From an uncultured Candidatus Bathyarchaeia archaeon (GTDB taxonomy: Archaea > Thermoproteota > Bathyarchaeia > Bathyarchaeales > Bathycorpusculaceae), in contig CAZLCE010000006.1 of the NCBI GenBank assembly GCA_964558305.1, positions 3,231-67,230 on the forward strand: DNA of 64,000 nt. Reading direction: 5' to 3'. The notes beneath the pieces were generated by a model that was not told the DNA's origin, searched no databases, and saw nothing but the letters and a program-made list of their open reading frames with translations. The translations under genes and the position numbers were made by a program. This document shows positions 4,074-61,486 of this stretch, piece after piece; the first letter of the stretch is position 1; the number at the start of each line of letters is the position of its first letter.

Positions 4074-4484
4074 CTACTTGTCCTTCAATAGGTAATAGGT
4101 TAAGAGACTCTTGGCGACTAGATCGCCTTCATTGTTTTTGACTTCTACGTCGCTTACGAAGATCCTAGAGCCTTTGTGTATGTTTCGTGCCTCTGCGATG
4201 AGCTTGCCTGATGTGACTGGTTTTAAAAAATTGACTTTCATTTCCACCGTGACTGGAATGCCTTCAAAGTTGCTTGAACCGAAGACAGCCCAGGCTGCTG
4301 CTGAATCAACTAAACTTGCTATGACTCCGCCGTGAACTGTGTTTAGAAGCTGCATATGTTTTTCAGCGATTTCCATCGAAAGGCGCGCATAATCCTCTTG
4401 CACTTCTTCAATTTTCACGCCCAAAAGCTGGTAGAATGGACTTTTTTCGCCACGACTGATGAGCACTTCTCGTGCAGAGTGCAT
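4074..4484 (-). CDS. PaaI-family hotdog-fold thioesterase
   Basis: 136 aa. NTVHGGVIASLVDSAAAWAV motif and a size typical of PaaI/YbgC hotdog thioesterases. Confidence 0.8.
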   Translation of the reverse strand: MHSAREVLISRGEKSPFYQLLGVKIEEVQEDYARLSMEIAEKHMQLLNTVHGGVIASLVDSAAAWAVFGSSNFEGIPVTVEMKVNFLKPVTSGKLIAEARNIHKGSRIFVSDVEVKNNEGDLVAKSLLTYYLLKDK

Positions 4485-4637
4485 GCTTACTCACCATAGG
4501 AATGCAAATATCGTGTAAGTATTTATTTTTACGCTCTCAAACAAGATTTTAACCTTGTCAAAATTATGCGAAGCAATGTTTGAGTAGACAACTTTAAATT
4601 ATATTTCAAAATATAAAATGTAAGGTGTTGAAACATA

Positions 4638-4949
4638 ATGAAACCGCTTCAAGTCGTTTATGTTTTAAGAGTAGTCTTTGGCATAGTAGCAGCTCTCTTG
4701 GCCACTGCCTATGTAATAGGGATAGGAGCCGTCTCTAAAACATGGTCTTCCCCTAACTGGAGCATTTTATTTAACGGTATGAGCCTCGCAATAATACTAT
4801 ATATAGTATCCTTCTACGCCATAAAGCGCTTTTTCGCGCTTAAAGTGGAAAAACCGCAAAAGCTCTTTACAATGGGAATAGGCATTTACTTCCTCACATG
4901 GATAGTTTTCTGGATCCTCATGTACACGATAATAGCTAGCTTAGCTTAA
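4638..4949 (+). CDS. Small integral membrane protein (about 3 TM), function unknown
   Basis: 103 aa with three long hydrophobic segments. AGGTG Shine-Dalgarno-like motif about 10 nt upstream and AT-rich TATA-like sequence further upstream. Confidence 0.5.
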   Translation: MKPLQVVYVLRVVFGIVAALLATAYVIGIGAVSKTWSSPNWSILFNGMSLAIILYIVSFYAIKRFFALKVEKPQKLFTMGIGIYFLTWIVFWILMYTIIASLA

Positions 4950-5401
4950 TCTTCTTCTTTAAGAAAATTCTCCATAGTTTCCTGGCTCTTGTCACTTTTC
5001 AAGGCTTCAAGCTTTTCGTTCTCCGGAATTGCATTGATTGCATTTGGAACACTTGCGATGTCCATTCTGCTGAGCACTCGCATGCAGTCAGTCCAAGCTG
5101 AGAAGAATCCGCGGTCAAAATCTCCATGAAGCCCGTTTCTTGTGTGATTTTGAAATTCTCGTCTGTAGTTATGCAGAGCTGCTTTGTCTTTTAAATCTAA
5201 TTTTGAGAAAAACGCATCCACATCGTTATTGTTGGATCGGCGCGCAAGCAGCATCCCAAACAAAGCTCTGAAGTAACCGCGGTTCCACTCTGTTTTCTGC
5301 ATTTTCTGTTTAAGCCTTTCCAATTCGCGTGCGGCTTCAGTAAACTGTCTATTAACTAAAAGCTGGAAGTAACGTGTAACTAGAGTTTGAGGAATAGGCA
5401 T
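4946..5401 (-). CDS. Hypothetical helical protein with an acidic C-terminal tail, translationally coupled to radA
   Basis: 151 aa. Its ATG lies 2 nt after the radA stop codon. I recognise no family. The C-terminus is ..ETMENFLKEED. Confidence 0.5.
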   Translation of the reverse strand: MPIPQTLVTRYFQLLVNRQFTEAARELERLKQKMQKTEWNRGYFRALFGMLLARRSNNNDVDAFFSKLDLKDKAALHNYRREFQNHTRNGLHGDFDRGFFSAWTDCMRVLSRMDIASVPNAINAIPENEKLEALKSDKSQETMENFLKEED

Positions 5402-5403
5402 TT

Positions 5404-6420
5404 TTAACGCCCGCGGGGCTTGGTTTTCTCTTCTTCAGAAACATCCTCTATGCCGTTCTCAGTTATTTTAAATATTTCTTCCCCTTCGGGCAAATAGGGA
5501 CTAGAAACTAGGCGAGCAATTCGTACTGGACCATGGGCAGCCCTTCGCAGATAAACACGCGTGTGGCTGGTGTGTCCAACAATGTGTCCGCCAATGGGAT
5601 GCACGGCGTCTCCGAAAAACACGTCTGGTTTAGCCATGACTTGATTTGTGACAACAGCTACAGCGTTAAAAGCCCTAGCCAAGCGAATAAGCTTATGCAT
5701 GTGCTTGTTAAGCTTCTGTTGTCTTGAAGCCAACATTTCACGTCCAATGTATTCGCTTCTAAAGTGTGAAGTCAAAGAATCAACAATTATAAGCTTCACG
5801 TTGTTCGCTTTTATTATTTCATCAGCGTTGTCTAATAGGAACATTTGATGGTCTGAGGTGTAGGCTTCAGCGTAAATGATGTTCTTAGCGACCTGTTCAG
5901 GGTCAAGTCCCAGATGTTTAGACATCTGCACGATGCGTTCTGTTCTAAAGGTGTTCTCTGTGTCAACATACAAAGCAGCGCCGTTGAGTCCACCACGTTC
6001 AGGAGACAACTGAACATTTACGCACAATTGGTGACAAAGTTGGCTTTTTCCGCTGCCATATTCGCCGTAAAATTCTGTTATGGTCTGCGTTTCCAGTCCG
6101 CCATCAAGAATCTTGTCCATAGCCTTGCTTCCACTTGTTAAACGTAAAACACTCTGTCGCATTTTGAGAAGTTCATCCGCCTTGACGAAAGAAACGCTGA
6201 TAGAAGAGCGGGCAGCATCAATAACTGCAAAAGCCTTTTTTTCGCTTATGCCTGCGGGCTCCAACTCGCGAGCTGTAGCCATAGCTAAGGATTCAACAGT
6301 GTGAAATCCCATCTCCCGCAGTTTTTGAGCAGTGGCTGGGCCTATTCCTGGGAGGTCTTCTAAAAGCTCGTATTTTCTCTTAAGTGCTACGTCTATCTTC
6401 TCCTCTTCTTCTGTTGCCAT
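5404..6420 (-). CDS. radA: DNA repair and recombination protein RadA
   Basis: 338 aa. N-terminal HhH domain (LEDLPGIGPATAQKL), Walker A GEYGSGKSQ, and a Walker B/strand LIIVDS. Confidence 0.95.
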   Translation of the reverse strand: MATEEEEKIDVALKRKYELLEDLPGIGPATAQKLREMGFHTVESLAMATARELEPAGISEKKAFAVIDAARSSISVSFVKADELLKMRQSVLRLTSGSKAMDKILDGGLETQTITEFYGEYGSGKSQLCHQLCVNVQLSPERGGLNGAALYVDTENTFRTERIVQMSKHLGLDPEQVAKNIIYAEAYTSDHQMFLLDNADEIIKANNVKLIIVDSLTSHFRSEYIGREMLASRQQKLNKHMHKLIRLARAFNAVAVVTNQVMAKPDVFFGDAVHPIGGHIVGHTSHTRVYLRRAAHGPVRIARLVSSPYLPEGEEIFKITENGIEDVSEEEKTKPRGR

Positions 6421-6644
6421 AACGCGTTTACTCTCCTTTTTTCGCGTTCACTGAAACAGTTGAGGCAAGCGGTATTTAAAACAAGCGAAGCATAATAGCG
6501 TCTGTTCCGTAGAGAGATGAGTTAAAGTGAAAATTAGGAAGTTGGCTGTTCTAGAAAGTTTCCTTAAGCCTTGCTGTTATTGCGTGATAAGGTATAAGTA
6601 CATGGTTTTTTCATAAAACTGGTCTAACAAGAGGGAGATAATCA

Positions 6645-7529
6645 TTGGAAAAAGCAAAAATCGTAGAAAACGTTGCTTTCAACATCTTAAAACAAGCTGT
6701 CATTTACCTACCTGAAGACGTGAAAGAAGCGCTCAAAAAATCGTATGCAGAAGAAACAAGCGAAACTGGCAAGACTCAGCTGAAGGCGATTTTGGATAAC
6801 ATTGAATTAGCTGAAAAGTATGAGGCTCCAGTATGCCAGGACACGGGCACAATAATTTTCTACATTAAAGCCGGAGTCAAGGCAAAGAATCTGGACAAAG
6901 TTGAAGAGGCGCTGATAAATGCGACGCGGAGAGCCACAAAAGATGTTCCCCTTAGACCGAATGCGGTTGACCCGTTCACGCAGAAGAACAGCGGAGACAA
7001 CACTGGAAGATTCATACCATACGTAAACTGGGAAATCGTGCCAGGCGACAGTCTAGAATTGACGGTTATGACTAAGGGCGGAGGTTCTGAGAACGTCTGT
7101 GTGACGGGTATGCTCGTGCCAGGTGAAGGAATTAAAGGTTTGAAAAAGTTTGTTGTTGACGCCGTAATAAAGGCTGGTGCTCAACCTTGTCCGCCGAACA
7201 TTTTAGGCGTCGCTGTCGGAGGTGGAGCCGACATATCTATGAAACTAGCCAAAAAATCCCTGCTAAAATCCTTAAACGAGCCTAATCCAAACCCTGAACT
7301 TGCCAAGCTTGAAAAGGAAATTTTTGAGGCTGTAAACATGACTGGAATTGGCCCAATGGGTTTGGGTGGAAAGACAACTGTTTTAGGCGTGCATGTGGAC
7401 TATGCTTTTAGACATCCAGCGTCTTTTCCTGCTGCTGTTGCCTTCAATTGCTGGGCTGCCAGAAGAGCTTCGGCACGAATTAACGCGGATGGAACAGTTG
7501 AATATTTAACGCATAGACTAAAATGGTGA
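6645..7529 (+). CDS. Class I fumarate hydratase (or tartrate dehydratase family), alpha subunit
   Basis: 294 aa with a TTG start. PVCQDTGT motif characteristic of the Fe-S type hydrolyase alpha subunit. Followed 12 nt later by the beta subunit. Confidence 0.9.
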   Translation: MEKAKIVENVAFNILKQAVIYLPEDVKEALKKSYAEETSETGKTQLKAILDNIELAEKYEAPVCQDTGTIIFYIKAGVKAKNLDKVEEALINATRRATKDVPLRPNAVDPFTQKNSGDNTGRFIPYVNWEIVPGDSLELTVMTKGGGSENVCVTGMLVPGEGIKGLKKFVVDAVIKAGAQPCPPNILGVAVGGGADISMKLAKKSLLKSLNEPNPNPELAKLEKEIFEAVNMTGIGPMGLGGKTTVLGVHVDYAFRHPASFPAAVAFNCWAARRASARINADGTVEYLTHRLKW

Positions 7530-41788: not shown

Positions 41789-44074
41789 ATGGACATAAAT
41801 TCTAAAGGCTTCAAAAAGATGATAATGACCTCAGCATTGCTACTTCTGATGCTAGATTTAACTTTCGTTTCAGGTCAAGCTGGTGGAGGTTCTGGAGGAT
41901 ATGAAAAGTGGGGGCCAAGAACTAATTACTTACAGTGTATAATCTATACGAATTATGAGACTGAGGCTACGGCTTTTCGTAATGGGCTTATTGACATTAT
42001 GGATTGGCCTTTAGACTATGATACATATATGTCTATAAAAGATGATCCTGCCTTCATTAAAGAAACACTTACAATGTATGATTGCTATGACATCGATATA
42101 AACTGTTTAAGATGGCCAACAAGCGATTACCGCTTTAGACAAGCTATCGCTTATTTAATTGACTACTCAACGTTTTATACTAATATTTTGAGGGCTTTCG
42201 CTGGCGAGTTGATGGACAATATTATATGGTCGCAATGGGTCAAGTGGTATAATCCGGGTGCCCCGAAGTATTGGTATGATAATGCTACAGCCTTATCAAT
42301 ACTTGCTGAAGCAGGTTACCAAAATTGGGACGGCGATCCACAACTGGAATGGAAAGCGCCGAATAATACAATTTACCAATTGCCCAACTTGGAATTTTAT
42401 GCAAGAGAGGATGATCCTCTTCGAGCGGCTTTAGGAACGATGTTAAACGCACAGTTAAACGCTATAGGCATTCCCACAACTTTCTCAGTAGCATCACGTA
42501 ACATTTGTTGGAACCACGCATACAAATTTTATACCTATCACTTATATACAGCGGGAATGGGTCCATTCCCAGACCCGCAATTCTTGTATGACTACTATCA
42601 CAGTAAATATGCTACGCCAGACATCGCTTGGTGCATGAACAATGTGTTCTTCATGAACGATACTTACGATTATTGGGTTGAACAACTCAAGTTTGCAGCT
42701 AATGACACTACGGCAGTACAAGCATGCAAAAACGCTCAAGAAATATTTATGGACCAAATACCCCTAATCCCAGTTTACCATTCAGCCGGCAAAAAAGCTT
42801 ACAAAGCTACATATGGGCATCACACTGGTGAGGAGGCATACTGGGATATGCCTTGGAACGGCGTTGTAAACTCGATAATACCAACAGTAGATTCTGGCAT
42901 TAACGATTATTGGACCCTCTTGAATGCGCATCCTGGAAGCGTTCAGAAAGGCGGTGTATTACGATACGGATGGCTATCCGACGCAGATCATGTAAATCCC
43001 GTGACGGTATACTCTATCTGGGACTCTTACCTGCTGGAAGAGCTTTACAGCACAATGATTATGCGCGATCCTTTCACGGGAGCCAGAGTTCCATGGCTTG
43101 CAAAAGATTGGACTGTTGGAACATGGAATTATGGAGGAAAAAATGCAACAAAATTAACGATGCGCCTTCATGAAAACCTCAAATGGTCTGATGGTACACC
43201 ACTCAATTCAACTGACGTAGCATTCACCATGAAATACATGTATGATACTTCTTCACCTTCCTACTACCCCTACATGGAGATGATTGACGGCATAAATACA
43301 ACAACTCCACATATTGAAACGCCAGATGCCACCACAGTTGTCATCTACTATACTGTTGAATCAGTATGGGCTCTCGAATGGGCGGGAGATACACCAATAA
43401 TACCCAAGCATGTATGGGAAACAGTACCACCCAAACAATGCGACCAGAAAGGCGAATTTACAACGACAGGCAACCTAACATGCTCAGGACCATACCTAAT
43501 CGACAGTTACGTGAGAGGCGAATGGTGGCTCCTAAGAGCAAACCCCTACTTCTTTAGATATTCACCCCCACATGATCTATCCCTAACAGACATGGGAAGC
43601 CAAAAAACAATCGTTTGCCAAGGATACGGCTTAAACGTAACCTTGACCTGCGCAAATATCGGATACTTCACAGAATCAGCAACAATAGAAGTCTTTGCAA
43701 ACGGAACCTCTGCCGGCACTATGTCGGGAATAACAGTGACAACTGCAACACCATGTACAATAACGTTCACTTGGGACACTTCTGGCTTTGCTAAGGGCAA
43801 CTACAACATAAGCGCCCTTATTTGGCCTGTTCTAGGCGAAATAGACACTGCCGACAACAATTTCACTGATGTTTGGATTTCTGTCGCTATAGTTGGTGAT
43901 GTTAACGCTGATAAGAAGGTTGATATGGTAGACCTTTGGGAAGTTGCTAGGCATTTTGGCATTGACTATCCGGACCCAAGATACGTGCCCAACTTTGACA
44001 TAGACAACAACGGCAAAACAGACATGATAGACCTCTGGACAACAGCCAAAGAATACGGCAAAATAGACCCATAA
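41789..44074 (+). CDS. oppA: Family-5 (peptide/nickel) ABC substrate-binding protein fused to C-terminal CARDB-like and dockerin-like modules
   Basis: 761 aa. Signal/anchor MIMTSALLLLMLDLTFVSG. SBP_bac_5-like core about 550 aa. CARDB-like segment (NVTLTCANIGYF..FTWDTSGFAKGNYNISA..GEIDTADNNF). Two dockerin-type Ca-binding loops (DVNADKKVDMVD, DIDNNGKTDMID). Confidence 0.85.
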   Translation: MDINSKGFKKMIMTSALLLLMLDLTFVSGQAGGGSGGYEKWGPRTNYLQCIIYTNYETEATAFRNGLIDIMDWPLDYDTYMSIKDDPAFIKETLTMYDCYDIDINCLRWPTSDYRFRQAIAYLIDYSTFYTNILRAFAGELMDNIIWSQWVKWYNPGAPKYWYDNATALSILAEAGYQNWDGDPQLEWKAPNNTIYQLPNLEFYAREDDPLRAALGTMLNAQLNAIGIPTTFSVASRNICWNHAYKFYTYHLYTAGMGPFPDPQFLYDYYHSKYATPDIAWCMNNVFFMNDTYDYWVEQLKFAANDTTAVQACKNAQEIFMDQIPLIPVYHSAGKKAYKATYGHHTGEEAYWDMPWNGVVNSIIPTVDSGINDYWTLLNAHPGSVQKGGVLRYGWLSDADHVNPVTVYSIWDSYLLEELYSTMIMRDPFTGARVPWLAKDWTVGTWNYGGKNATKLTMRLHENLKWSDGTPLNSTDVAFTMKYMYDTSSPSYYPYMEMIDGINTTTPHIETPDATTVVIYYTVESVWALEWAGDTPIIPKHVWETVPPKQCDQKGEFTTTGNLTCSGPYLIDSYVRGEWWLLRANPYFFRYSPPHDLSLTDMGSQKTIVCQGYGLNVTLTCANIGYFTESATIEVFANGTSAGTMSGITVTTATPCTITFTWDTSGFAKGNYNISALIWPVLGEIDTADNNFTDVWISVAIVGDVNADKKVDMVDLWEVARHFGIDYPDPRYVPNFDIDNNGKTDMIDLWTTAKEYGKIDP

Positions 44075-44086
44075 ACCCACCTTTTT
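43873..44086 (+). repeat. 214-bp perfect direct repeat, copy 1 (dockerin coding sequence + stop + oligo-T)
   Basis: By base-by-base comparison it is identical to 61273-61486 (offset exactly 17,400 bp). The 102 bp upstream (43771-43872 vs 61171-61272) show 18 mismatches and no indels. Confidence 0.95.
43895..44071 (+). other. Dockerin-like module (two EF-hand-like 12-residue loops, each followed by a helix)
   Basis: GDVNADKKVDMVDLWEVARHFG..FDIDNNGKTDMIDLWTTAKEYG matches the dockerin type I repeat consensus D-x-N/D-x-D/N-G/K-x-(V/I/T)-D-x-x-D. Confidence 0.75.
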
Positions 44087-58586: not shown

Positions 58587-58762
58587 TCGTCCTTTTATGT
58601 TATGTCTAAATGTATTCTTTTGTATTTTGGGTTTTAACGGTTTGCCTTTGAAAAAGGGTTGAATGTTTTGGTGTTGCTATGATTAACTTATATGGTCGTA
58701 TAGAAGATTTATCCGTAAGATTTATGTTTTGATTGAACTATTTTAGATCAGGAGAAAGAAAA

Positions 58763-61474
58763 ATGTTAAAGAGAACTGTTTCTTGGATAATGTTAATACT
58801 GCTGTTAATAGGTGTATCTTATACAGCACTAAATGTAAGACCAGCGACAAGTTGGAGCAATGGTGGTTTCAGTGATGATTCTTCTAACCCGGTTTATGGT
58901 ACACACGATTGGATTGCTCAGCATGCTTTAGACTGGTTGCCAAACGAGGAAAAGGCATACATCGTAAACAACTTAGCTATTTACTTGTACGGAACTGAGT
59001 TGCCTGACAATGGTGGAGCCCCTGATGGGATTGGCGACACAGCCTTGCATCATATTTACTATTGGTCTAATGAAAGCTTGCAAGATGATGCCTCGGCAGT
59101 TCGAGCGCAAACAGAATTCGGCAATGCTCTAAACTACATGAAATCTGGCAACGTTACAATGGCTGTTAAGACGCTTGGAATAATGAGCCACTACATTGTT
59201 GATGTGGGCGTGTTTGGACATGTGATGGGTAGCGGGACGGATTGGGGTGCGGAAGTCCACCACAGTGATTACGAAACCTACGTGAATGAGCGGACTAATA
59301 GTTATGATGATGAATTCAATGTTTATCTTGCTTTTGACGGCAGCCTCGATCTTATCTCTGCTTACGATGCCGCAAGCATGCTTGCTTATGACACAACATT
59401 TGACTTGGACGGAGATTTGACCTGTGTGTGGATGGATCAAAACTACGACTGGAGCAATCAAACTTTCAAAGATCGATGTGGGGAATCACTAAACTTTTCC
59501 GTTAATGTTCTCACAGATGTCTTGCATACTGCGTTCGCGCAAAGCGAAGAGGATGTTGTAGTGGACGGTGGAAGTCTTCTTGGTCATCGTCCTGTATTAT
59601 GGGCGTATGAAACTGCTCAATCATTCAAACCAACTAAACCCATTTTGTCGAAAGTAGCTGTTTTTCTCAGGGCAATGGCACCTAGTTACTCCACTGAGAT
59701 ATCTGTTCACGTAAGGTCTTCCCTAACTGGTCCTGATCTCACGTCGATAAACCGAACACTCACTTCTCCTGAAGAAGCCGTCTCGCGCTGGCGCGAAGAT
59801 AGCTGGGTAGAATTCGACTTCCCCGACGTAGAAGTGATAGCCGGCCAAACTTATTTCATGGTAGTAACGACTCCTGGCGAACATGTTTTCAGTTTACTGG
59901 TATACACGGATTCTTATGGTGACGGGAATTATTTCTGGAGAGATGTGCCCTACGACCCCAATTGGAAATCAGAACCTGGAGAAGAGTTAAGATTTACAAC
60001 ATTTACGAAAATTCAAGACATAGCTGTCACCGATGCTGTGTGCTCCAAAACCGTTGTGGGACAAGGCTACCCTCTACAAATAAACGTAGCCCTAATAAAT
60101 CAAGCCTTTAGTACTCAAACCTTCAACGTCACGGTCTACGCTAATTCAACCAATTGGGTTTGGGCTAGAGATACGGTTACTGGCACTTATGGCGAAGCTG
60201 TAGTTGGCACGGGCACGGACATTTACATCGCAAGAGGAACCAGCTTTTATCGATATCGCCCTTCAGACAACAGCTTTGTAGAGTTGGCAGCACCGCCGCA
60301 GCCCGATGGTGCAGCTTTCAAAACTGGCACAGCCTTGGATTGGTCCCCCGCCATGGACGACTACATTTTTGCTCTATATGGAGCAGCAACAGGAGAGAGT
60401 CGCAGATTCTTTTATCGCTACAGCATTTCGAGCAACTCTTGGGAGCGTTTACCAGATACCCCAGTTGACCAAGGTGAGGGTAACGCAATAAGATGGCACT
60501 CAGCTTTAATACACCTTGGGCTATTTGCCACACTGGGTGGTGAGCAACGCCCCACATATCTTTATCGTTTTGACCAGCACGTGATGCAATGGACGCACAA
60601 AGATGACCTCATGAGAGAGCTTGCTGACCCGCCGGCAGGCATGGGAGACGGTGCCTCACTCGTTGGCACATGGGCCCCCTACTTCTATGCGTTGCGCGGC
60701 GAGTTTTACGAAACCTCACCCATTTACGATTTCTGGCGCTACAGCATTATGGATAATGCATGGACTGTTATGGCAGATATTCCCGCTGAGCCCCACAGCG
60801 GTGGGTCCGGTGGTGTAGGCGATGGAGGCTCGCTTCTGTATATTGCGACGTGGCTTCCAGACCAAGCAGATTATATCTACGCTTTGAGCGGCAACCAAGC
60901 TGAGCCTGATGGCATACCAGACAACCGCACCTACAGATACACCATCTCAACCAACAGCTGGGAACGCTTGACAGACCTACCATTTGGAGTCGGATACTAT
61001 GTAGGCAATCGGTTAGCTTATGCAGATGGACACATTTACGCGTGGCAGGGAGCACCAAGCACATGGACAGGCGGAGGCGACGACCTTGCCAGATACCAGC
61101 AGACACCAATAATAATAGAAACAAAAGAAGTCACTCTCACAAGCGGAAACTCCACGACCCTCACCTTCGCTTGGAACACTTCTGGCTTTGCCAAAGGCAA
61201 CTACACCATAAGCGCCTACGCCTGGCCAGTTCTAGGTGAAATAGACACTGGTGACAACAATTTCATTATTGGTTGGATTTCTGTCGCTATAGTTGGTGAT
61301 GTTAACGCTGATAAGAAGGTTGATATGGTAGACCTTTGGGAAGTTGCTAGGCATTTTGGCATTGACTATCCGGACCCAAGATACGTGCCCAACTTTGACA
61401 TAGACAACAACGGCAAAACAGACATGATAGACCTCTGGACAACAGCCAAAGAATACGGCAAAATAGACCCATAA
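58763..61474 (+). CDS. Secreted multidomain protein: zinc phospholipase C / S1-P1 nuclease-like domain + Kelch-like repeats + CARDB-like + dockerin-like module
   Basis: ATG at 58763 (MLKRTVSWIMLILLLIGV, with a GGAG upstream) is preferred over TTG 58733. WSNGG..GTHDWIAQHAL..DTALHHIYY..LGIMSHYIVDVGVFGHV..EVHHSDYETYV is collinear with the Zn-ligand positions of bacterial zinc PLC. There are at least 5 repeats of the form (F/Y)YRYxxxxNxWxxLxDxP. The C-terminus is identical to that of 41789-44074. Confidence 0.8.
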   Translation: MLKRTVSWIMLILLLIGVSYTALNVRPATSWSNGGFSDDSSNPVYGTHDWIAQHALDWLPNEEKAYIVNNLAIYLYGTELPDNGGAPDGIGDTALHHIYYWSNESLQDDASAVRAQTEFGNALNYMKSGNVTMAVKTLGIMSHYIVDVGVFGHVMGSGTDWGAEVHHSDYETYVNERTNSYDDEFNVYLAFDGSLDLISAYDAASMLAYDTTFDLDGDLTCVWMDQNYDWSNQTFKDRCGESLNFSVNVLTDVLHTAFAQSEEDVVVDGGSLLGHRPVLWAYETAQSFKPTKPILSKVAVFLRAMAPSYSTEISVHVRSSLTGPDLTSINRTLTSPEEAVSRWREDSWVEFDFPDVEVIAGQTYFMVVTTPGEHVFSLLVYTDSYGDGNYFWRDVPYDPNWKSEPGEELRFTTFTKIQDIAVTDAVCSKTVVGQGYPLQINVALINQAFSTQTFNVTVYANSTNWVWARDTVTGTYGEAVVGTGTDIYIARGTSFYRYRPSDNSFVELAAPPQPDGAAFKTGTALDWSPAMDDYIFALYGAATGESRRFFYRYSISSNSWERLPDTPVDQGEGNAIRWHSALIHLGLFATLGGEQRPTYLYRFDQHVMQWTHKDDLMRELADPPAGMGDGASLVGTWAPYFYALRGEFYETSPIYDFWRYSIMDNAWTVMADIPAEPHSGGSGGVGDGGSLLYIATWLPDQADYIYALSGNQAEPDGIPDNRTYRYTISTNSWERLTDLPFGVGYYVGNRLAYADGHIYAWQGAPSTWTGGGDDLARYQQTPIIIETKEVTLTSGNSTTLTFAWNTSGFAKGNYTISAYAWPVLGEIDTGDNNFIIGWISVAIVGDVNADKKVDMVDLWEVARHFGIDYPDPRYVPNFDIDNNGKTDMIDLWTTAKEYGKIDP
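61295..61471 (+). other. Dockerin-like module (identical copy)
   Basis: Same 59 residues as 43895-44071, encoded by identical nucleotides. Confidence 0.75.
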
Positions 61475-61481
61475 ACCCACC

Positions 61482-61486
61482 TTTTT
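61482..61486 (+). terminator. Oligo-T tract (T5) after the stop codon; putative archaeal terminator
   Basis: TAAACCCACCTTTTTC, which is part of the perfect repeat. Confidence 0.3.

What the first reader, a model, noticed from the sequence alone, without database searches (positions are those of the whole stretch)
58763..61474. Novel-looking secreted architecture: zinc-PLC/S1-P1-like domain + Kelch-like propeller + CARDB + dockerin
Seen:
- A signal/anchor sequence.
- A block of about 230 residues whose W, H and D residues are collinear with the Zn ligands of zinc phospholipase C (W..GTHDWI..HH..SHY..D..GH..HH..E).
- A spacer region.
- At least five repeats with the pattern (F/Y)YRYxxxxNxW(E/T)xLxDxP, typical of Kelch blades.
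- A CARDB-like domain, then the shared dockerin.

Inference: this is a surface-displayed phospholipase or nuclease with a propeller binding domain. Together with the SBP it would belong to a dockerin-mediated extracellular assembly for scavenging lipid, nucleic-acid or peptide detritus. I do not recognise this domain combination as a described one.
Basis: partly seen in the sequence, partly recalled or inferred. Interest (0 to 1): 0.6.

Follow-up and report, generated by a model that had tools for sequence, protein, structure and literature searches.

The report
Docked archaeal phospholipase-C-like modular surface enzyme
An uncultured hot-spring archaeon (Bathyarchaeia) encodes a secreted protein whose zinc phospholipase-C-like head, a propeller inserted inside another domain and a docking tail are all exchangeable cassettes; the combination is unique so far, but it is a variant of known docked surface-enzyme systems.

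Summary

- **Head.** After a cleavable signal peptide comes a 231-residue all-helical module. It passes Pfam's Zn_dep_PLPC threshold and folds confidently (pLDDT 95.4). Its nearest structures are bacterial zinc phospholipases C (1AH7, TM 0.64), clearly ahead of S1/P1 nucleases. It keeps the trinuclear-zinc ligands, including a Trp that becomes residue 1 after signal cleavage.
- **A widespread cassette.** This module has at least 458 clusters at 50% identity and is essentially always N-terminal. Its partners include peptidases, beta-helices, lamin-tail and Ig-like domains. Minimal members of about 300 aa carry only a membrane anchor.
The "spacer" is a rare beta-sandwich domain with no Pfam model. 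The CARDB domain does not follow the Kelch propeller: the propeller is nested in a CARDB hairpin.
- **The junctions are real.** Unitigs from several independent metagenomes cover both of them.
- **Docking system.** The dockerin tail is identical over 214 nt to that of a nearby binding-protein gene. The genome holds 18 cohesin/dockerin ORFs, including membrane-anchored cohesin proteins.

Substrate (lipid or nucleic acid) is untested. Verdict: a new variant of a known kind, of moderate interest.

The parts
58763..61474 (+). Whole gene: 903 codons plus stop; monocistronic.
   Evidence: ORF list and translation. Homologues start at the same MLK(R/K)T... methionine. A GGAG lies upstream and a T-run downstream.
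58763..58852 (+). Signal peptide, aa 1-30, with predicted cleavage ATS|W31.
   Evidence: An [AVT]x[AGS]|W motif occurs in 140 of 141 family members at median position 28. No signal-peptide predictor was available, so this is an inference from sequence.
58853..59545 (+). Zinc phospholipase-C-like module, aa 31-261. Candidate Zn ligands are W31, H48, D82 (or D92), H97 (H96), H143, D147, H153, H167 (H166) and E171.
   Evidence: Pfam PF00882 at 30.1 bits, above 26.8. Profile against PDB finds PC-PLC 1AH7 at E about 1e-3 with ligands aligned. AF2 pLDDT 95.4. Foldseek gives 1AH7 at E 7e-6, TM 0.64, and S1/P1 nucleases only at E 0.07 or worse. Ligand columns are invariant or at least 90% conserved.
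59546..60001 (+). Unannotated beta-sandwich module, aa 262-413 (motif QSFKPT...RSSLTGxDL...WVEFDF...GxTY).
   Evidence: Only 6 homologous proteins (8 domain copies, 28-35% identity) in 5.8 billion clusters. No Pfam or PDB sequence match. AF2 core is all-beta, mean pLDDT 57. Weak Foldseek matches to CBM6/CBM61/CBM4-type jelly rolls, E 2e-3 to 3e-2, TM 0.34-0.44.
60002..60151 (+). CARDB domain, N-terminal half, aa 414-463 (...FNVTVYANST).
   Evidence: In P0009, P0011-P0016 and others this stretch is directly contiguous with the stretch homologous to aa 784-903. The two halves spliced in silico hit PF07705 at 25.2 bits, above 22.7, across the junction; neither half does so alone.
60152..61111 (+). 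Kelch-type beta-propeller, aa 464-783, about six blades, nested in the CARDB hairpin.
   Evidence: Kelch_6 at 50.7 bits and others. Profile against PDB finds muskelin, KLHL2 and KLHDC2 Kelch propellers. Five blade motifs. In all 82 homologues this module follows a signal peptide directly. No second copy in the own genome. GC 0.524 exceeds every one of 645 long ORFs in the genome. Both junctions are covered by unitigs in runs X1, X3 and X4.
61112..61282 (+). CARDB domain, C-terminal half, aa 784-840 (IIIETKEVTLTSGN...).
   Evidence: Same evidence as for the N-terminal half.
61283..61471 (+). Type-I dockerin, aa 841-903, with two Ca-binding repeats (DVNADKKVDMVD and DIDNNGKTDMID).
   Evidence: PF00404 at 31.3 bits, above 22.9. 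Cellulosomal dockerins in the PDB match at E 3e-4. The genome encodes 11 cohesin matches.
61273..61486 (+). 214-nt tract (dockerin, stop codon and 12 nt downstream) identical to window 43873-44086, the 3' end of the dockerin-bearing substrate-binding-protein gene.
   Evidence: In-register comparison. A 300-nt repeat at 93% identity.

Best explanation
The gene encodes a secreted, modular surface enzyme.

1. A signal peptide is cleaved before Trp31. The free N-terminal Trp completes a trinuclear zinc site in an all-helical catalytic head of the zinc phospholipase C / P1-nuclease superfamily, on its PLC-like branch.
2. This head most likely hydrolyses a phosphodiester. The best guess is the glycerol-phosphate bond of phospholipids in cell debris, which would release phosphorylated head groups.
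3. Behind the head sit three non-catalytic modules that probably hold substrate or space the head from the cell:
   - a rare jelly-roll-like beta-sandwich;
   - a CARDB Ig-like domain;
   - a highly conserved Kelch propeller inserted into a hairpin of that CARDB.
4. The C-terminal dockerin plugs the protein into cohesin modules of membrane-anchored scaffold proteins of the same cell, next to docked hydrolases and transporter binding proteins.
5. The gene was assembled by recombination of exchangeable cassettes. The head must stay N-terminal, so the propeller, which elsewhere is also N-terminal, was accommodated as a nested insert.

Shown: domain identities, conserved zinc-ligand residues, the nesting, the reality of the junctions, and the cohesin-dockerin repertoire.

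Inferred: signal cleavage, zinc binding, substrate, the roles of the accessory modules, and which cohesin is the partner.
For: PLC-like head:
- PF00882 scores above its cut-off.
- A profile of 41 family members hits only PC-PLC and PlcB in the PDB, with H14, H69, H118, D122, H128, H142 and E146 aligned to invariant or at least 90% conserved residues.
- The AF2 model has pLDDT 95.4. Foldseek puts 1AH7, 8CQM and the alpha-toxin N-domains first (E 7e-6 to 7e-4, TM up to 0.66), with S1/P1 nucleases second (E 0.07 or worse).

N-terminal constraint:
- Trp follows a signal-peptidase motif in 140 of 141 homologues.
- The module starts at residue 20-47 in nearly all of the 150 listed representatives.

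The head works on its own:
- Minimal family members of about 300 aa consist of signal peptide, module and a PEF-CTERM-like or TM anchor.
- The most frequent partner domain is the lamin-tail domain, in 19 of 89 representatives.

Nesting of the propeller:
- The two CARDB halves are contiguous in homologues.
- The spliced CARDB passes Pfam's cut-off and the halves alone do not.
- An ordinary CARDB unitig diverges from this gene exactly at nt 60152.
- Another protein of the same genome has a dockerin inside the same hairpin.

The gene is real:
- Zero-mismatch unitigs of even depth (14-19x) in run X1, and unitigs from X3 and X4, span both junctions.

Docking system:
- 16 dockerin matches and 11 cohesin matches fall in 18 ORFs.
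- These include a 699-aa protein with two cohesins and a C-terminal TM, and a 231-aa protein with one cohesin and a C-terminal TM.
- Docked cargo includes penicillin amidase, GH113, a PQQ propeller, a NosD beta-helix and substrate-binding proteins.

Cassette exchange:
- The head is 70-84% identical in proteins that are otherwise unrelated, even sharing the signal peptide.
- The dockerin tail is identical over 214 nt to that of another gene.
- The Kelch segment is compositionally foreign.
Against: - No activity, metal content or substrate was or could be measured.
- Identity to characterised PLCs is only 14-19% and TM 0.52-0.66, so substrate specificity cannot be transferred.
- The equivalent of ligand Asp55 is ambiguous. 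D82 or D92 are both invariant, while HMMER aligned a third, non-conserved Asp.
- The packing of the two CARDB halves around the propeller was not modelled.
- Fusion of the same head to M14, M28 and C39-like peptidases shows it need not be the only catalytic unit, and leaves a targeting role open.
- No expression data: the RNA libraries of the same study are tiny and hold none of the sampled words.
Confidence: 0.6

Rival explanations
1. The head is not a phospholipase. It is a nuclease (S1/P1-like) or another phosphodiesterase or phosphatase acting on extracellular nucleic acids, teichoic-acid-like polymers or small glycerophosphodiesters. The rest of the reading (secreted, docked, modular) stays the same.
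For: - It belongs to the same structural superfamily. S1, TBN1 and SmNuc1 nucleases are recovered by Foldseek with TM up to 0.62.
- Identity to PLCs is only 14-19%, so the branch is deep.
- The lamin-tail partner domain is, from Pfam's family description as I recall it, found with various phosphoesterases and not only lipases.
Against: - PF02265 (S1-P1 nuclease) does not appear even at E up to 1, while PF00882 passes its cut-off.
- A family profile finds only PLCs in the PDB.
- Foldseek E-values are about 10,000 times better for PLCs.
- Ligand spacing matches PLC, not P1: His to His is 14 residues, and the last ligand is Glu four residues on (P1 has 23 residues and Asp). This comparison rests on established knowledge of 1AH7 and 1AK0.
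Confidence: 0.25
2. The PLC-like module is not catalytic in these proteins. It would be a conserved N-terminal cap that binds phosphate-bearing surfaces (membranes, debris), or acts as a folding or latency module for the enzymes fused behind it, such as the M14, M28 and C39-like peptidases.
For: - It is fused N-terminally to catalytic domains of other classes, where pro-domains usually sit.
- It is unusually conserved (70-84% identity) across otherwise unrelated architectures.
Against: - The full set of zinc-ligand residues is invariant or nearly so across 142 sequences, which is the signature of a working metal site.
- Minimal members carry nothing but this module and an anchor.
- In the protein studied here no other catalytic domain is detectable.
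Confidence: 0.08
3. The architecture is an artefact or a dead gene. Either the assembly is chimeric, or a recent insertion of a propeller cassette has destroyed the CARDB domain and left a non-functional protein.
For: - The architecture is a singleton: one member on one contig.
- The Kelch segment has foreign composition.
- The gene lies among repeated, recombining cassettes.
Against: - Unitigs with no mismatch and even depth cross both junctions in X1. Unitigs from other samples (X3, X4) cross them too, and X2 (another study) holds 57% of the sampled words.
- The frame is open over 903 codons.
- The insert sits exactly in a hairpin with no CARDB residues lost or duplicated.
- A propeller's two ends lie side by side, which suits a loop insertion (structural knowledge, not tested here).
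- The same hairpin hosts a dockerin in another gene of the genome.
Confidence: 0.05

Closest known systems
Bacillus cereus phosphatidylcholine-preferring phospholipase C (PDB 1AH7) and Listeria monocytogenes broad-range PlcB (8CQM); Pfam PF00882
   Same: - All-alpha fold (Foldseek E 7e-6, TM 0.64).
- Mature N-terminal Trp.
- His/Asp/Glu ligand set with the same spacing.
- Secreted.
   Different: - Only 17-19% identity.
- Archaeal.
- Four extra residues between Trp1 and the first His.
- A different loop around the Asp55 equivalent.
- Carried on a 900-aa modular protein with a dockerin.
- Activity unknown.
S1/P1 nucleases (Aspergillus S1 5FB9, tomato TBN1 3SNG, Stenotrophomonas SmNuc1 8QJP); Pfam PF02265
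   Same: - Same superfamily.
- Trinuclear zinc site with an N-terminal Trp.
- Extracellular.
   Different: - Much weaker fold match (E 0.07-1).
- No Pfam match.
- Different ligand spacing, and Asp rather than Glu as the last ligand.
Non-cellulosomal cohesin-dockerin systems of archaea (Archaeoglobus fulgidus; ANME archaea, Chadwick et al. 2022, PMC9012536)
   Same: - Dockerin-tailed secreted proteins, including ABC-transporter binding proteins.
- Proteins with several cohesins.
- Cargo sets that vary between relatives.
   Different: - This one is in Bathyarchaeia.
- The cargo includes a PLC-like enzyme, which I did not find in the passages of that paper I read.
- The scaffolds here are small, with one or two cohesins.
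Bathyarchaeia proteins P0054 and P0076 (560 and 563 aa: PLC-like head + middle region + intact CARDB + dockerin) and P0002-type proteins (517 aa: signal peptide + Kelch module + intact CARDB + dockerin)
   Same: Between them they carry the same head, CARDB and dockerin (45-46% identity overall) and the same propeller, CARDB and dockerin (62% identity).
   Different: - Neither type combines head and propeller.
- In both types the CARDB is uninterrupted.
- Their middle regions are not detectably similar to residues 262-413.

Membership tests
Zinc-dependent phospholipase C (Pfam PF00882; PLC/P1-nuclease superfamily) | Sequence match to the family model above the curated threshold | tested here: met
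   30.1 bits against a cut-off of 26.8 for residues 47-178. 75 of 90 family members scanned (89 representatives plus this protein) also match.
Zinc-dependent phospholipase C (Pfam PF00882; PLC/P1-nuclease superfamily) | All-helical fold of PC-PLC | tested here: met
   AF2 pLDDT 95.4, 11 helices. Foldseek top 17 hits are all zinc PLCs, led by 1AH7 at E 7e-6 and TM 0.64.
Zinc-dependent phospholipase C (Pfam PF00882; PLC/P1-nuclease superfamily) | Nine zinc ligands: Trp1, His14, Asp55, His69, His118, Asp122, His128, His142, Glu146 | tested here: inconclusive
   Seven align to conserved residues in the HMMER alignment to 1AH7 (H48, H97, H143, D147, H153, H167, E171), and Trp31 is at least 90% conserved. 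The Asp55 equivalent is ambiguous between invariant D82 and invariant D92. Geometry could not be checked because no coordinates were given.
Zinc-dependent phospholipase C (Pfam PF00882; PLC/P1-nuclease superfamily) | Trp is the first residue of the mature protein, so that its amino group can bind zinc | tested here: met
   Trp directly follows an [AVT]x[AGS] signal-peptidase motif in 140 of 141 homologues. Actual cleavage is not testable here.
Zinc-dependent phospholipase C (Pfam PF00882; PLC/P1-nuclease superfamily) | Hydrolysis of the glycerol-phosphate bond of phospholipids | not testable with these tools
   Needs an enzyme assay.
S1/P1 nuclease (Pfam PF02265) | Sequence match to the family model | tested here: not met
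   Not listed at E up to 1. No S1/P1 chain appears in the PDB profile search at E up to 10.
S1/P1 nuclease (Pfam PF02265) | Fold closest to S1/P1 nucleases | tested here: not met
   S1/P1 structures rank below all PLCs, with E 0.07-1.
Kelch beta-propeller | Repeated Kelch motifs above the Pfam thresholds that form a closed propeller | tested here: met
   Kelch_6 at 50.7 bits, with Kelch_4, Kelch_3 and Kelch_1 also above cut-off. The profile hits Kelch propellers in the PDB, E 3e-9. Five blade motifs were found. Closure and blade number (about 6) were not modelled.
CARDB (Pfam PF07705) | One contiguous Ig-like domain that matches the model | tested here: not met
   The native protein gives no hit. 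The domain is split by 320 residues. Only the spliced halves reach 25.2 bits against a cut-off of 22.7, over profile positions 14-83. It is therefore a CARDB with a nested insert.
Type-I dockerin / cohesin-dockerin system | Dockerin with two Ca-binding repeats | tested here: met
   PF00404 at 31.3 bits against a cut-off of 22.9. The two DxNxDxxxD-type repeats are visible in the sequence.
Type-I dockerin / cohesin-dockerin system | Cohesin partners, including cell-anchored ones, in the same genome | tested here: met
   11 cohesin matches. C10:7821-9950 has two cohesins and a C-terminal TM; C4:78935-79633 has one cohesin and a C-terminal TM.
Type-I dockerin / cohesin-dockerin system | Specific binding of this dockerin to a cohesin | not testable with these tools
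   Needs a binding assay.

The most novel reading that the evidence does not exclude
The PLC-like head may define a large, uncharacterised archaeal family of cell-surface zinc phosphodiesterases. It has at least 458 clusters at 50% identity, is patchy across the phylum, and is extremely conserved.

Its members may be displayed on the cell's own surface because they attack bacterial-type (sn-glycerol-3-phosphate) phospholipids and spare the archaeon's own mirror-image ether lipids. That would be an enzymatic use of the 'lipid divide' for feeding on bacterial membranes.

The absolute need for a free N-terminal Trp would then explain why other normally N-terminal cassettes, such as the Kelch propeller, are forced into nested positions.
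Probability: 0.2. Interest if true: 0.7.

Novelty: new variant of a known kind. Interest (0 to 1): 0.42.

Why it matters
Bathyarchaeia are among the most abundant sediment archaea and are thought to live on detrital organic matter, but their extracellular enzymes are almost entirely uncharacterised.

- **A tractable enzyme family.** This gene points to a widespread, very conserved, surface-displayed zinc phosphodiesterase family. A 230-residue head can be expressed alone and tested on bacterial and archaeal lipids and on nucleic acids.
- **Evidence of cassette exchange.** It is also a clean natural example of how these archaea build secreted proteins. Signs of exchange include shared signal-peptide-plus-head units, a 214-nt identical docking tail and a compositionally foreign propeller.
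- **A tolerant insertion site.** One CARDB hairpin tolerates whole-domain insertions, which could be useful for protein engineering.
- **Context for the docking system.** It helps define what a Bathyarchaeia cohesin-dockerin surface assembly carries.

Tried and rejected
- **Modelling residues 255-903 or 405-903.** I wanted to see whether the CARDB halves pair around the propeller. MAFFT persistently stacked the CARDB and middle-domain fragments onto the propeller columns, because the homologues are not collinear with the query.
- **Middle domain.** There is no Pfam hit and no credible PDB sequence hit. The AF2 model is weak (pLDDT 57), so the jelly-roll/CBM-like matches are only a hint.
- **A possible 'empty-site' allele.** A low-depth joint in X1 (60145 to 61187) might have been an allele without the propeller. 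On closer view it is a 144-nt unitig of a different, ordinary CARDB with 5 mismatches, so I rejected it.
- **Expression.** The only RNA libraries of the same study are 12-16 million letters and hold none of the sampled words. This says nothing either way.
- **Literature.** Searches for Bathyarchaeota with phospholipase C, for PF00882 / Zn_dep_PLPC, and for archaeal PLC with dockerin found nothing relevant beyond the ANME dockerin survey.
- **NCBIfam.** It gave only sub-threshold hits.
- **Alternative TTG start at 58733.** Rejected because homologues begin at the ATG-equivalent Met.
Full report
**The observation**

A single open frame runs from ATG 58763 to the stop at 61472-61474 on the + strand and encodes 903 residues. 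An upstream in-frame TTG at 58733 is unlikely to be the start, because homologues begin at the equivalent MLK(R/K)T methionine.

Pfam finds the following on the native protein:
- Zn_dep_PLPC, residues 47-178, 30.1 bits against a curated cut-off of 26.8;
- several Kelch models, residues 543-741;
- Dockerin_1, residues 845-891, 31.3 bits against 22.9;
- no CARDB.

The neighbours are unrelated housekeeping genes: a kinase-like gene on the other strand upstream, and a LigT-like gene and a CCA-adding enzyme downstream. The gene stands alone, with a GGAG before the start and a T-run after the stop. Hits in the protein collection name the organism group as Bathyarchaeia. The closest public runs are hot-spring and sediment metagenomes.

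**Is the gene real?**

The architecture turned out to be a singleton, so I checked the assembly.

- In run X1, unitigs with no mismatch and even depth (14-19x) tile the gene. One runs from 58600 to 60210, across the first internal junction at 60152. Another, 61057-61225, crosses the second junction at 61112.
- Unitigs from other samples also cross the junctions: X4 at 60084-60231 and 60967-61141, and X3 at 61012-61183.
- X2, from a different study, holds 57% of the sampled words.
- A low-depth joint that might have been an allele without the insert is a different, ordinary CARDB gene. It diverges from this gene exactly at 60152.

An assembly chimera is therefore very unlikely.

**The head (residues 31-261)**

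*Family size and position.* A search of 1.84 billion cluster representatives with this piece found 458 clusters at E of 1e-3 or better, and 184 at 1e-30 or better. In almost all full-length hits the match starts at residue 20-47. In 140 of 141 complete modules the first residue, Trp, follows an [AVT]-x-[AGS] motif at median position 28. That is a signal-peptidase site.

*Conserved residues.* In an alignment of 41 diverse members, H18, E49, D52, D62, H66, H113, H123 and E141 are invariant (numbering from Trp31 as residue 1). W1, H67, D117, H136 and H137 are at least 90% conserved.

*Comparison with solved structures.* A profile of that alignment finds only B. cereus PC-PLC and Listeria PlcB in the PDB. 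The alignment puts the family's H18, H67, H113, D117, H123, H137 and E141 on PLC ligands H14, H69, H118, D122, H128, H142 and E146. The ligand identities are established knowledge of 1AH7. The partner of Asp55 is unclear: HMMER chose a non-conserved Asp, whereas the invariant D52 (in GTELPD) or D62 are better candidates.

*Fold.* AlphaFold2 gives an all-helical model with mean pLDDT 95.4. Foldseek ranks 17 zinc-PLC chains first, with 1AH7 at E 7e-6 and TM 0.64. S1/P1 nucleases come only afterwards, at E 0.07 or worse. The S1-P1 Pfam model does not match at all.

So the head belongs to the PLC/P1 superfamily and sits nearer the PLC branch. At 14-19% identity its substrate cannot be read off.

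**What the family looks like**

*Conservation.* The same head is 70-84% identical in proteins that are otherwise different, sometimes with an almost identical signal peptide. Partners include:
- M14 or M28 peptidases;
- NosD-type beta-helices;
- PQQ propellers;
- cohesin plus dockerin.

*Partner domains.* Among 89 diverse representatives the commonest partners are lamin-tail domains (19), Ig-like domains, PKD domains, dockerins (5) and NosD (4). None has Kelch repeats.

*Minimal members.* These are about 300 residues: signal peptide, head and a C-terminal 'PEF'-type or plain transmembrane anchor. The head therefore works as an autonomous, cell-surface unit.

*The paralogue.* The genome's second copy (contig 7, 63% identical) carries a C39-like peptidase domain and a PEF-CTERM-like anchor.

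*Distribution.* Across 301 genomes of the phylum the family is patchy: 34 genomes and 16 of 123 genera. It nevertheless scores about 400 bits even outside the class.

**The middle domain (262-413)**

This is not a spacer.

- It has six homologous proteins in 5.8 billion clusters, some with two copies.
- These share QSFKPT, RSSLTGxDL and WVEFDF motifs and sit beside peptidases, beta-helices and PKD domains.
- No Pfam model matches it, and there is no credible PDB sequence match.
- The AlphaFold2 model is weak (pLDDT 57) but all-beta.
- Its best fold matches are carbohydrate-binding-module-type jelly rolls, at marginal scores.

I treat it as an unclassified binding-type beta-sandwich.

**The propeller is nested in the CARDB**

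Comparison with 119 homologues split the rest of the protein into three pieces.

- Residues 414-463 and 784-903 are directly contiguous in proteins such as P0009 and P0011-P0016, where together they form CARDB plus dockerin.
- Residues 464-783 match a Kelch module at 60-77% identity. In all 82 other proteins this module follows a signal peptide directly.
- At the sequence level the gene reads ...FNVTVYANST | NWVWARDTVTG ... GGGDDLARYQQTP | IIIETKEVTLTSGN.... An ordinary CARDB reads ...FNVT(L/V)YANTT-IIxTQxVTLTSG....
- Splicing the two halves in silico gives a CARDB hit above Pfam's cut-off (25.2 against 22.7 bits) that runs across the splice. Neither half reaches it alone.

Nothing of the CARDB is lost or duplicated, so this is a domain insertion in a beta-hairpin.

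*Origin of the propeller.* It has no other copy in the genome. Its G+C of 0.524 is higher than that of all 645 long ORFs of the genome, and its GC3 lies in the 98th percentile. This suggests it came from another lineage.

*Uniqueness.* No other protein in the collection covers the CARDB-to-Kelch junction. No genome among 40 relatives has the full architecture.

*A precedent in the same genome.* A PQQ-propeller protein (contig 14) has a dockerin inserted in the same CARDB hairpin.

*The propeller family.* It is very conserved: 78% mean column identity and more than 100 invariant columns. In the PDB it resembles only generic Kelch propellers. What it binds is unknown.

*A rationale (inference).* The head cannot give up the N-terminus because its Trp1 amino group is a zinc ligand. 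The two ends of a propeller lie next to each other, so a loop insertion is the simplest way to combine the two cassettes.

**Dockerin and its system**

The last 214 nt of the gene region (dockerin, stop and 12 nt beyond) are identical to the 3' end of the dockerin-bearing substrate-binding-protein gene 17.4 kb upstream.

The genome has 16 dockerin matches and 11 cohesin matches in 18 ORFs.

- Docked cargo: a penicillin-amidase-type hydrolase, a GH113 glycosidase, a PQQ propeller, a NosD beta-helix protein and two transporter binding proteins.
- Anchors: a 699-residue protein with two cohesins, PKD, a coiled coil and a C-terminal transmembrane helix, and a 231-residue cohesin protein with a C-terminal helix.
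- Adaptors: several proteins carry both a cohesin and a dockerin.

This matches the non-cellulosomal cohesin-dockerin systems described for ANME archaea, where binding proteins are also docked (PMC9012536).

**How it most likely works**

1. The protein is secreted and the signal peptide is removed (inferred).
2. The head binds three zinc ions and cleaves a phosphodiester. A phospholipid is most likely, a nucleic acid less so (inferred from family membership).
3. The beta-sandwich, CARDB and propeller hold the substrate or space the head from the cell (inferred).
4. The dockerin ties the protein to anchored cohesins, beside other hydrolases and uptake proteins. The modules are shown; the pairing is inferred.

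The main rival is a different phosphodiester substrate. A non-catalytic head and a dead or artefactual gene are unlikely, for the reasons given in the Rival explanations section.

**Novelty and score**

Every module is a known type and is recognised by standard models, and docked modular enzymes are a known kind of system. Three things are new:
- this particular combination;
- the nested propeller;
- the recognition that the PLC-like head is a large, conserved, obligatorily N-terminal archaeal surface family that nobody seems to have characterised (no relevant papers).

I rate it a new variant of a known kind, with moderate interest.

Noticed in passing
own genome contig C14:36079-38109 (outside the window): A 664-aa PQQ-propeller protein ends in CARDB plus dockerin. 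It also carries a second dockerin inserted in the same CARDB hairpin (...FNVAAYYNETA[dockerin]NQTIVTLPPGN...) that hosts the Kelch propeller here. This hairpin seems to be a recurrent site for whole-domain insertions.
   Followed up: partly
own genome contig C7, about 4380-6662, minus strand (outside the window): A paralogue of the head (63% identical) sits in a 760-aa protein. It has a signal peptide, the PLC-like module, a C39-like peptidase domain (CGPACLEM), Ig-like domains and an 'IPEF' + TM + basic tail that looks like a PEF-CTERM sorting signal.
   Followed up: partly
own genome contig C10:2-9950 (outside the window): Five consecutive genes carry cohesin and/or dockerin modules. The last is a 699-aa protein with two cohesins, PKD, a coiled coil and a C-terminal TM helix. 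This looks like a scaffoldin-type gene cluster.
   Followed up: partly
window 61273-61486 and 43873-44086: There is a perfect 214-nt identity between the 3' ends of this gene and the dockerin-bearing substrate-binding-protein gene. It covers the stop codon and 12 nt beyond. Upstream the identity decays to about 93% over 300 nt.
   Followed up: yes
window 60152-61111 and homologues P0002-P0120: The Kelch module family is unusually conserved: 78% mean column identity, more than 100 invariant columns, and G-[DE]-G loops in successive blades. Except here, it always follows a signal peptide directly. Its ligand or activity is unknown and may deserve its own study.
   Followed up: partly
window 59546-60001: The middle beta-sandwich module (QSFKPT...RSSLTGxDL...WVEFDF...GxTYY) has no Pfam model. 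Only six homologous proteins were found; some carry it in tandem, next to peptidases, NosD and PKD domains.
   Followed up: partly
genomes G046, G078, G109 and others (search of 301 genomes of the phylum): The PLC-like head is present in only 34 of 301 genomes (16 of 123 genera). It still scores about 400 bits in genomes outside the class. The pattern is patchy but extremely conserved, which suggests horizontal spread or very strong constraint.
   Followed up: no
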